DNA of 63,839 nt, counting the filler, from Kipferlia bialata (lineage: Eukaryota), in the NCBI GenBank assembly GCA_003568945.1. It is 5 parts of 5 records of this genome, joined end to end, with 100 filler letters (N's around TTAATTAATTAA, not from the genome) between each part and the next. Parts side by side here need not be neighbours in the genome. Positions count along the whole stretch, not along the records: positions 1 to 16,571 come from BDIP01000591.1; 4 more parts are not named here. One strand, 5' to 3'. Positions 194 through 2,173 of the stretch are shown here, one piece after another; the stretch's first letter is position 1, and every line of letters begins with the position of its first letter. The position numbers were made by a program, and so were the translations under genes. Below the pieces are notes generated by a model, which saw only the letters and a program-made list of their open reading frames with translations, searched no databases and was not told the origin of the DNA.

Positions 194-1110
194 TGGGATG
201 CGCCTGAATGTAAGGGATATATATTATATATATTATAGGAATGATACACCAGTGCATAATGTCACCCAAGTATGATAGTCACTAGTTAAGGGTGTTCACA
301 TATATGAACCTACGCCACTATGATGCCCCAGCGAAAGGATGGGATATCTGAATCAAAGAGAATCACAGGATATAGATACGATCACATATCAATGTATGTA
401 TGCACACAAATCAGACAACGGGTATGGAATACTACTAGAACAACATATAATATCAAAGTCTGAGCATCACAAGCAAGAGAGAGAGAGATGCGGTACCTGA
501 ACTTGCCAAAGGCTGTGGGAGTGAAGTCGTAGGGCCTGTCCTCCTCCTCCCTCTCACCCCACTCGGCCAGCTCCTTCTTGGTAGGAATGTACTCGGGAGG
601 GGGGTTGAAGGACTCGGCGTGGCCTGGGAGGCGCATGCCGGGTGCAGACAGGTAGGACCTCTTCATCTGGGCAACGTCCAGGATATCTCTGTCCATCCAC
701 ACATCGTACCGCTGCTCTGGGACCAGCTGCTTGTCGCCAGGGAGCGCAGCCTTGCGCTTGGCGTCCAGCTCGGGGTCCAGGTCGCCACGGCGGATGGCTG
801 CGGCGATACGCTTGACAGTGCGGCCCTCGGAACGGCTGGGGATGTAGGCGGCCTTCATGAGGGGAGCATCGGATATCTGGAAGTCTGCCAGCTTGGACTT
901 GGCCAGACCGGCTGTGTAGTTGGCCCAGGGGTCGTTGTCGTGGGCGTGGTGGCCCCTCTCGACCCTACGGATCATGTTAACCTCCTCATTGGTCAGCTCT
1001 GTGACCTCACCGGTCACTGGGTCATAAAGACGCCTGAAGAAGGAGGGGTCGGACTTCTGCTGCACATAGTGATCGAGCAGCGAAGCGTCTGTCTCTCTAT
1101 CCTGTGACAT
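61..1110 (-). CDS. BOP1: Ribosome biogenesis protein BOP1/ERB1, 5' part (exons 1110-497 and 147-61; runs off the window start)
   Basis: BOP1 N-terminal domain motifs: DPSFFRRLYDPVTGEVTELTNEE, APGMRLPGHAESFNPPPEYIPT. After a GT-AG intron (496-148) comes RRIPAYKDFIMERFKRCLDLYLCPR. Confidence 0.93.
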
Positions 1111-1503
1111 CGCTCAAGAAGGCCGCATCTTGAGGGAATGTCTAGTCCCTTTGGATGAGGTGGCTAAGGCAAAAACAGCATGATCACCGGTGAACTGAGT
1201 TCGTCCCAGTAGAGCCTAGTAGGGTACCTACAAGGACACTGCCGTATGCGGGCTTTGTTTGTATCATTAACACACGTGTCCGGACATCAGGTACTATATA
1301 TCTCTGTTCCAAGCCCAAGACAGTCCGGATTCAGACACTATTCAAGACTATACCCAGAACACAACAGACAACGCAACTCAACGGCACTATTTATGGATGT
1401 AAAAGGCACATTAGGGCACCACTTGCACACTGGGGTTCAAGAGTCAGGTGTATCCTGACCCTCTAGCCCACTAGGTACCAGATGAGAGGCATACAACGAG
1501 GCC

Positions 1504-1931
1504 TCACTCGTCCTGGTAGAGGGGGTCACGCTTGTCGATGGGGGTGGCGGTCACAGTCTCCTTGGTGTCCCTGTCGCTGCCCCAGCCGTGGGCAGACTTG
1601 CCTCCCTTGGCACCCTGGCCACCGCGAACGGTGCCGGCGCCTGGGGCTGGGGTCAGATGATGCAGAGTTAAGGGAGAGAACAGGAGGAGCATTGTTGATG
1701 AAACAAATAAGGCAGAGAACGCACAAAAAGGTCAACAAGGCGTGTCATTAGTTACAAACACTACATTAAAGACACTATTGCGGTAATATGATACACAACA
1801 CCTGGCAGGAGCCGAGAAAATTCCAAAAATATGTCAGTCGATTCAAGAACTCTCAGCTAATGCCGGATAAAGCAGAAAAACTAACCTCCGTGGCGCTCCT
1901 GGCGCACCTCAGTCTTGGGATCGGGGGTCAT
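1504..1931 (-). CDS. 62-aa microprotein with PDCD4/SERBP1(HABP4)-like GG..WG...DPxY motif (exons 1931-1886, 1646-1504)
   Basis: ATG at 1931, donor gttag at 1885, acceptor ctgaccccag ending at 1647. The exons join in frame (46+143 nt) to give MTPDPKTEVRQERHGAPGAGTVRGGQGAKGGKSAHGWGSDRDTKETVTATPIDKRDPLYQDE*. Confidence 0.7.
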
Positions 1932-2004
1932 TGTTGTGTGTTGTGGTTTATGGGTGAAGAAGAAGCGTGTGACGTCAGTGGCCACTGTTCACCGATGGTC
2001 TTGG

Positions 2005-2040
2005 CACACCCTTTTGGCAAAAAGACACCACACCCTTTTG
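2005..2040 (+). promoter_or_regulatory. Direct repeat CACACCCTTTTG x2 in a divergent intergenic region; candidate promoter element
   Basis: Exact 12-mer at 2005-2016 and 2029-2040, between head-to-head ATGs at 1931 (-) and 2174 (+). A similar motif occurs upstream of other starts. Confidence 0.35.
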
Positions 2041-2173
2041 TGATTCTTTTTGTTTCGATGTTGGAGTCTACTCTCTCTCCATCACTATACGAGCACTTCT
2101 GAGCACCAATATACCGTCCCCCTCACCTACACCCTCCTTTACCTGTAGCTGGGTACTGTGTGGTGTGTGAGAG

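What the first reader, a model, noticed from the sequence alone, without database searches (positions are those of the whole stretch)
1504..1931. Stand-alone PDCD4/SERBP1-type ribosome-binding microprotein hidden by an intron
Seen: the spliced 62-aa protein contains RGGQGAKGGKSAHGWG...IDKRDPLYQDE. Established: the PDCD4 N-terminal ribosome-binding region reads roughly RGLPKKGGAGGKGVWG...VDVKDPNYDDD, and the KxGxG..WG motif is shared with SERBP1/HABP4/Stm1 ribosome-dormancy factors. Inference: a minimal translation repressor or hibernation factor lacking MA3 domains. It sits next to BOP1 and is missed by the ORF track.
Basis: partly seen in the sequence, partly recalled or inferred. Interest (0 to 1): 0.7.

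Follow-up and report, generated by a model that had tools for sequence, protein, structure and literature searches.

The report
Ribosome-plug microprotein gene beside BOP1
A spliced, polyadenylated two-exon gene encodes a 62-residue protein that is a divergent stand-alone copy of the segment by which PDCD4 and SERBP1 plug the ribosome's mRNA channel, so it likely parks idle ribosomes, and similar tiny proteins occur in many eukaryotic lineages; binding is untested.

Summary
The gene is real. Contigs of two runs from separate studies join 1886 to 1646, and one runs from 1953 to a non-templated poly(A) tail at 1380, so the 62-aa product is not fused to BOP1 or to MA3 domains. Pfam, PDB and single-sequence searches miss it. 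A profile of 40 stand-alone relatives built without it scores it 27.6 bits, above 3000 of 3000 shuffles even with WG/DP/Y held fixed. A profile of this family hits human PDCD4 96-149 (E 6e-14) and SERBP1. Such ~50-100-aa proteins occur across eukaryotes, carry only automatic names, and I found no paper on them. The window's copy is divergent: it keeps W-G, one Lys, R(-14) and DxxDPxY but lacks the Lys pair and a near-invariant Gly. The isolated human PDCD4 N-terminal domain binds 40S (21 nM) but does not inhibit translation (PMC11310195). Binding was not tested. Verdict: new variant of a known kind, interest 0.5.

The parts
1932..1953 (-). 5' UTR, at least 22 nt, no upstream ATG
   Evidence: X2 contig starts at 1953. 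A contig end is only a lower bound for the start site.
1886..1931 (-). Exon 1 coding part (15 codons + 1 nt); carries E-R-H (1898-1890), the likely counterpart of the D-R-H/D-R-R motif 1
1647..1885 (-). 239-nt GT-AG intron, phase 1; donor GTTAGT, branch motif CTGAC at 1656-1652 with the branch A 6 nt from the acceptor G
   Evidence: joint in X2 and X5
1641..1642 (-). Second in-frame AG; possible minor acceptor giving a 60-aa form (inferred, not seen as a joint)
   Evidence: X1 contig stops exactly at 1642, where a 1640-spliced form would converge with the other forms
1504..1646 (-). Exon 2 coding part to TGA
1579..1626 (-). R23 ... K29-G-G ... W37-G38: counterpart of PDCD4 R110 ... K114/K115 ... 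W124-G125
   Evidence: residue roles from PMC11217289 and PMC11310195
1516..1536 (-). D-x-x-D-P-x-Y, the C-terminal motif shared with PDCD4 and the stand-alone family, absent from SERBP1 in the PDB alignments
1380..1503 (-). 3' UTR (124 nt) ending at a non-templated poly(A) site near 1380
   Evidence: X2 loose end; genomic context
497..1114 (-). Downstream neighbour: first exon of BOP1 (ATG 1110), a separate transcript

Best explanation
The gene makes a spliced, polyadenylated mRNA for a 62-residue protein, predicted to be unfolded, that consists only of a divergent PDCD4/SERBP1-type ribosome-binding region and likely plugs the mRNA channel of idle 40S subunits or vacant 80S ribosomes to protect them. 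Shown: gene structure, transcript, stand-alone status, homology by profile. Inferred from the human structures: W37 would dock in the uS3 pocket like PDCD4 W124; K29 (perhaps helped by K32) would contact h18 like K114/K115; R23 and R13 would reach the decoding bases like R110 and R102/R103; the DxxDPxY tail would run along uS3 outside the channel. Without MA3 domains it could not hold eIF4A and would be displaced by eIF1/eIF1A/43S assembly, so it would act as a reversible preservation factor for empty ribosomes, not as a strong initiation repressor.
For: Transcript and stand-alone status. Profile of 40 non-redundant stand-alone relatives aligned without the query: 27.6 bits (62 aa), 29.3 (60 aa), 24.1 (exon 2); 0 of 3000 plain shuffles and 0 of 3000 shuffles with W, G, D, P, Y fixed reach this. 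Profile of 34 RBRs from MA3-bearing ORFs: 16.1 bits for exon 2, 0 of 5000 shuffles; SERBP1, a proven channel binder, scores 13.6 on that profile. The family alignment (47 rows, exon 2 among them) hits human PDCD4 96-149 at E 5.8e-14, SERBP1 chains at 19.5-27.4 bits, Vig2 19.7, HABP4-type chains 16, and matches the MA3-linked RBR profile at 99.6%. R23 lies 14 residues before W37, as R110 does before W124 (PMC11217289). The SERBP1 chains deposited as 6mte_w and 8vvt_w are only 55 and 46 aa long. PDCD4 1-156 alone binds 40S with Ki 21 nM but does not inhibit translation at 8 uM (PMC11310195). No stable fold is predicted (pTM 0.20, no secondary structure). The Atlas gives a lead only: a 57-aa cluster with PF04774 in 34% of members, score 0.81; the same cluster is the top hit of a typical member.
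Against: No binding or function was tested here. The copy is divergent: 27.6 bits against 52.5-77.3 for 14 left-out typical members. It has one basic residue at W-10..W-8 where 35 of 40 stand-alone and 34 of 34 MA3-linked relatives have two or more, Ser at W-4 where 39 of 40 and 32 of 34 have Gly, and no aromatic at the Y131 position (which only 7 of 40 and 4 of 34 relatives keep); the K114A/K115A double mutant of PDCD4 loses binding. Against the MA3-linked profile the score is only marginal once WG/DP/Y are fixed (73, 170 and 198 of 5000 shuffles reach it), and HHalign of exon 2 alone gives 34% probability. Exon 2 has no Pfam hit, no PDB hit and no true hit among 1.84 billion representatives. 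The relatives were gathered with a pattern that encodes the motif, so their conservation is inflated. No relative from the same lineage was found, so selection on this copy could not be measured.
Confidence: 0.6

Rival explanations
1. It is a degenerate or re-tuned member that has lost most channel contacts and binds only the uS3 surface, weakly, or acts as a competitor or adaptor at the entry site.
For: Lys pair and near-invariant Gly missing; long terminal branch 1.64; best-kept part is the C-terminal DxxDPxY.
Against: It still keeps ERH, R at W-14, K-G-G, A-H-x-W-G in the short SERBP1-like spacing and two basic residues before W, as 7 of 40 relatives do; the organism's BOP1 is also very divergent (no hit at E 1e-20, weak evidence), so fast lineage-wide change could explain the drift.
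Confidence: 0.17
2. It is an active translation repressor that blocks initiation by occupying the channel.
For: The RBR clashes with mRNA, initiator tRNA and eIF1A, and the authors propose eIF4A-independent inhibition (PMC11217289); the N-terminal domain lowers mRNA affinity 4-fold.
Against: PDCD4 1-156 does not inhibit translation at 8 uM and is >100-fold weaker on 43S (PMC11310195); the window protein lacks MA3 and ends before the eIF3g-binding strand (PDCD4 148-159).
Confidence: 0.1
3. The likeness is partly convergent: a small Gly/basic disordered RNA-binding peptide with a non-ribosomal job.
For: Gly-rich composition (10 of 62); single-sequence searches all blank.
Against: Three separate motifs in the family order and spacing across the whole length; 0 of 3000 motif-fixed shuffles reach the score.
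Confidence: 0.08
4. It is functionally tied to BOP1 (detached N-terminal piece or ribosome-biogenesis partner).
For: Tandem, 266 nt upstream of the BOP1 transcript; this BOP1 starts at BOP1NT profile position 18.
Against: Separate poly(A) transcript; similarity is to PDCD4, not BOP1; no BOP1-like frame in the flanks (up to 700 nt) of 77 related loci.
Confidence: 0.05

Closest known systems
PDCD4 ribosome-binding region (human residues 100-145; PDB 8XXL; plant MRF-type proteins, name recalled)
   Same: Motif order D/E-R ... R ... K-G ... W-G ... D-x-x-D-P-x-Y; R at W-14; whole protein equals the RBR in length.
   Different: No MA3 domains, no eIF3g-binding strand, no long N-terminus; one Lys instead of K114/K115; one residue shorter between K and W; W-to-D spacing 19 instead of 16.
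SERBP1 / HABP4 / Vig2 / Stm1 dormancy factors (Pfam PF04774)
   Same: Short K-G-G-x-x-x-H-x-W-G spacing and D/E-R-H motif; family profile hits SERBP1, Vig2 and HABP4-type chains; 23 of 47 family rows match PF04774 at E<=0.01.
   Different: 62 aa against about 350-410; carries DxxDPxY, which SERBP1 lacks; no long RGG regions; exon 2 itself does not reach PF04774. No Stm1 chain was hit.
Unnamed stand-alone RBR proteins (automatic names 'Hyaluronan/mRNA-binding protein domain-containing protein', 'programmed cell death protein 4', 'hypothetical')
   Same: Same architecture and size (49-99 aa); named members in Bonamia, Perkinsus, Mastigamoeba, Chromosphaera, Adiantum, Globisporangium/Pythium.
   Different: The window copy is the most divergent one scored and is absent from the 5.8-billion-protein collection at 25-81 aa.
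Yeast Tma10/Stf2 (recalled as ~85-aa proteins with a K-x-G-x-G-x-x-N-W-G motif; from memory, no call)
   Same: Recalled small size and motif.
   Different: Homology not tested; not among the named hits listed; no paper linking them to this family was found.

Membership tests
PDCD4 | Tandem MA3 domains on the same chain | tested here: not met
   Stop at 1504 and poly(A) at 1380; no MA3-like frame in the window (best 3.9 bits)
PDCD4 | RBR motif 2: W-G | tested here: met
   W37-G38
PDCD4 | RBR motif 1 arginines (R102/R103, R110) | tested here: met
   R23 at W-14 as R110; R13 at W-24 (W-22 in the 60-aa form) against W-22 for R102; family range 20-26
PDCD4 | K114/K115 pair | tested here: not met
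   Only K29; preceded by Ala (4 of 40 relatives also lack the first Lys); K32 nearby
PDCD4 | C-terminal D-x-x-D-P-N-Y of the RBR | tested here: met
   DKRDPLY, Leu for Asn
SERBP1/HABP4/Stm1 (PF04774) | Pfam PF04774 above its cut-off | tested here: inconclusive
   Exon 2 alone has no hit; the full spliced protein, whose exon 1 carries the ERH motif, was not scanned against Pfam
SERBP1/HABP4/Stm1 (PF04774) | Long RGG-rich chain of several hundred residues | tested here: not met
   62 aa; PDB SERBP1/HABP4 chains 347-408 aa
Stand-alone RBR proteins | Significant match to a profile built without the query | tested here: met
   27.6 bits, 0 of 3000 in both nulls; below typical members, 52.5-77.3
Stand-alone RBR proteins | Own transcript ending just after DPxY | tested here: met
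mRNA-channel binders (function) | Binds 40S/80S at uS3 and h18 | not testable with these tools
   Needs biochemistry or cryo-EM
Tma10/Stf2 | Profile similarity | not tested
   No sequence of these proteins was returned by any search

The most novel reading that the evidence does not exclude
RBR-only microproteins are an ancient, pan-eukaryotic and so far unstudied class of minimal ribosome-hibernation factors, the module from which PDCD4 (plus MA3) and SERBP1/Stm1 (plus RGG regions) were built; this gene is its member in a deep-branching protist, may be that lineage's main dormancy factor, and tunes the depth of channel insertion by a two-residue alternative acceptor inside motif 1.
Probability: 0.25. 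Interest if true: 0.75.

Novelty: new variant of a known kind. Interest (0 to 1): 0.5.

Why it matters
Which factor fills the mRNA channel of dormant ribosomes is open in many protists: in Toxoplasma the density is unassigned and no clear PDCD4 homologue was found (PMC13419753, passages). A 50-100-aa class that annotation pipelines and Pfam often miss (23 of 47 match at E<=0.01) is a ready candidate list. It also gives a natural test of what the RBR does without MA3, a point on which the two 2024 PDCD4 papers differ in emphasis. A 62-aa peptide can be synthesised and assayed directly.

Tried and rejected
Single-sequence searches with exon 2: Pfam 0 families, PDB 0, word search 0 candidates at 25-81 aa, phmmer over 1.84 billion proteins gave 2 hits, both repeat proteins (one has no WG at all, the other is a Thr/Ser-rich repeat), rejected. 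Motif pattern in viral contigs: 0. Of 89 metagenome loci, 11 did not hold the motif in frame and L012 was dropped by eye as unrelated. Tree of 75 rows x 58 columns (quick method only): 42 of 72 branches open; it cannot say whether stand-alone forms arose once or many times. AlphaFold model too poor for a fold search, none run. Search with the BOP1 exon for longer relatives gave nothing at E 1e-20, so the organism's group is not shown. No whole genome is held, so I could not test whether this organism also has PDCD4 or SERBP1. Complex prediction with a stand-in uS3 was not available, so there is no structural verdict on binding. The alternative acceptor could not be checked by a second read lay. 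Run X4 (share 0.07) was never laid and is not used. Contig depth in X1 (5427 for exon 2, 830 for BOP1) cannot rank expression and is not used as evidence. Fusion to BOP1 through a GTGAGG at the stop codon was considered and rejected by the poly(A) contig.

Full report
Gene structure. On the minus strand an ATG at 1931 opens 46 nt of coding sequence, followed by a GTTAGT donor at 1885. The intron ends in CTGAC-CCCAG at 1647, and exon 2 reads in frame to TGA at 1506-1504, giving 62 aa. Exon 2 has no Met in its stop-to-stop frame, which explains why ORF callers miss it; no protein of 25-81 aa in the 5.8-billion collection shares three 5-mers with it. Five public runs hold part of the region; four were laid. 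X2 and X5, from different studies, join 1886 to 1646; X3 has a loose end that fits the same joint; X1 covers 1382-1642 only. The X2 contig runs 1953 to 1380 and ends in poly(A) that is not in the genome. BOP1 is on another contig starting at 1114. The gene is therefore a stand-alone two-exon unit. GC3 is 0.81 against 0.41 GC in the intron. A second AG at 1642-1641 may be a minor acceptor: X1 stops at 1642, the exact convergence point of a 1640-spliced form with the other forms. This is a hint only.

Homology. Every single-sequence search with exon 2 was blank or spurious. The Atlas gave sub-threshold leads to 56-61-aa eukaryotic clusters, one with PF04774 in 34% of members. I therefore collected relatives with a degenerate pattern for KKxGxG..WG..DPxY: 89 metagenome loci, 78 with the motif in frame, one dropped as unrelated. 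Of 36 long ORFs, 35 were scanned and all 35 hit MA3, 34 above the cut-off. A profile of 34 of these RBRs finds human PDCD4 100-148 at E 3.6e-18 and SERBP1 at 13.6 bits. It scores exon 2 at 16.1 bits and the 62-aa form at 13.2, reached by 0 of 5000 shuffles each, but by 73 and 170 of 5000 when W, G, D, P and Y are held in place. HHalign of exon 2 alone is weak (34%). Twenty-four loci stop within 22 residues of DPxY, and 23 of them show no MA3 in the fetched flank (14 with 497 nt or more; many are near-copies).

The stand-alone family. An alignment of exon 2 with 12 short ORFs found 184 proteins at E<=0.001 among 586 candidates; of the 120 listed, 64 start with Met, are 100 aa or shorter and end within 25 residues of DPxY. 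Named ones come from Bonamia, Perkinsus, Mastigamoeba, Chromosphaera, Adiantum and Globisporangium/Pythium, that is Rhizaria, Alveolata, Amoebozoa, Holozoa, land plants and stramenopiles (group names from my own knowledge). Their names are automatic. A profile of 40 non-redundant members aligned without the query scores the 62-aa form 27.6 bits, the 60-aa form 29.3 and exon 2 24.1, above all 3000 shuffles in both nulls; 14 left-out members score 52.5-77.3. The 47-row family alignment, which includes exon 2, hits human PDCD4 96-149 (E 5.8e-14), SERBP1 chains (19.5-27.4 bits), Vig2 and HABP4-type chains and matches the MA3-linked profile at 99.6%; 23 of its 47 rows match PF04774 at E<=0.01, exon 2 not among them. 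Caveat: the seed set was chosen by the motif, so column conservation is inflated; the motif-fixed null addresses this only in part.

Residue map. PDCD4's RBR is residues 100-145; R102, R103 and R110 contact decoding-site rRNA, K114/K115 contact h18, and W124 sits in a uS3 pocket; mutating either group abolishes binding (PMC11217289, whole main text and three supplement legends; its alignment figure S9 is a picture I could not see and 4 of 16 supplement files were not searched; PMC11310195, passages and section 10). The window protein has W37-G38, R23 at W-14, E-R-H at W-25 to W-23, K29 at W-8 in the shorter SERBP1-like spacing (13 of 40 relatives have K there), and DxxDPxY 19 residues after W (family 15-19). 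It departs from the family in having one basic residue at W-10 to W-8 (35 of 40 and 34 of 34 relatives have two or more) and Ser for Gly at W-4 (39 of 40, 32 of 34). Net charge is +3 before W and -3 after, which fits a basic part in the rRNA channel and an acidic part on the uS3 surface (inference). AlphaFold2 gives no fold (pTM 0.20), as expected for an extended ribosome-bound peptide.

Mechanism. PDCD4 1-156 binds 40S as well as the full protein (Ki 21 against 23 nM), lowers mRNA affinity 4-fold, is weakened more than 10-fold by eIF1/eIF1A and more than 100-fold on 43S, and does not inhibit translation at 8 uM (PMC11310195). An RBR-only protein would thus occupy empty subunits or vacant 80S and give way when initiation factors load. 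I put 0.6 on this passive preservation role, 0.17 on a weakened or re-tuned binder, 0.1 on an active repressor, 0.08 on convergence and 0.05 on a tie to BOP1 (no BOP1-like frame in the flanks of 77 related loci). None of this was tested by experiment or by complex prediction.

Literature. No paper on stand-alone RBR proteins turned up in ten searches: HABP4+PDCD4+microprotein 0, Tma10+Stm1+dormant 0, hyaluronan/mRNA-binding/dormant/protist 0, Stf2+HABP4+yeast 0; some searches returned the two PDCD4 structure papers, a review of vacant ribosomes (PMC12785861, passages), a Toxoplasma preprint (PMC13419753, passages) and two listings not opened; two searches were seen as listings only; one search concerned introns (PMC6679479, passages). 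Most subscription journals are not in the library. Earlier unchecked AI notes of this scan describe the same kind of gene in diatoms and a marine eukaryote; they are not support, but they show that the class recurs, and some place it next to PDCD4, which is not the case here (no MA3 frame in the window, a weak test in an intron-rich genome).

Verdict. Observation confirmed; interpretation partly supported. It works most likely like the PDCD4 RBR or SERBP1 core but is a member of neither family by architecture. It is a divergent, apparently unannotated member of a widespread, automatically named and, as far as I could find, unstudied class. Novelty: new variant of a known kind. Interest 0.5: the class is a good, cheap experimental target, but this copy is neither the first seen nor the most typical.

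Noticed in passing
window 1641-1648: Tandem acceptors 6 nt apart; the X1 contig stops at 1642, the point where a 1640-spliced form converges with the others. The 60-aa form would put R13 at W-22 as in PDCD4 and scores 29.3 against 27.6 bits.
   Followed up: partly
window 1953-2091: About 140 nt separate this gene from a divergent + strand transcript (3849-nt contig starting at 2091); the gap holds TGACGTCA (1970-1977) and CACCCTTTTG twice, possible shared promoter elements.
   Followed up: no
window 497-1114: BOP1 begins at BOP1NT profile position 18 with a 5' UTR of about 4 nt and lacks the usual acidic N-terminal extension (usual form recalled).
   Followed up: partly
whole window: CTRAY to first AG spacing peaks at 5-8 nt (62 at 7 nt, 23 expected), like the fused branch point/acceptor of metamonads (PMC6679479); the organism is likely an intron-rich metamonad (inference).
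   Followed up: partly
window 59095-60260: TSR1/BMS1-type C-terminal exon (RIBIOP_C, E 2e-74), a second ribosome-biogenesis gene in the window.
   Followed up: no
window 52949-58645: 1899-codon stop-free frame on the minus strand in a GC-rich block (about 0.6), no Pfam match.
   Followed up: no
L092, L093, L096: Short contigs in three bacterial assemblies encode animal-type ribosomal protein uS3, probably contamination.
   Followed up: no
P0028-P0085 (about two dozen of the 120 hits): A subgroup of 85-132-aa RBR proteins with an SP-rich N-terminus (MRSP/MKSP) and a Pro/Ala-rich tail, no MA3 in the listed length; two are named from red algae. Possible phospho-regulated branch.
   Followed up: no
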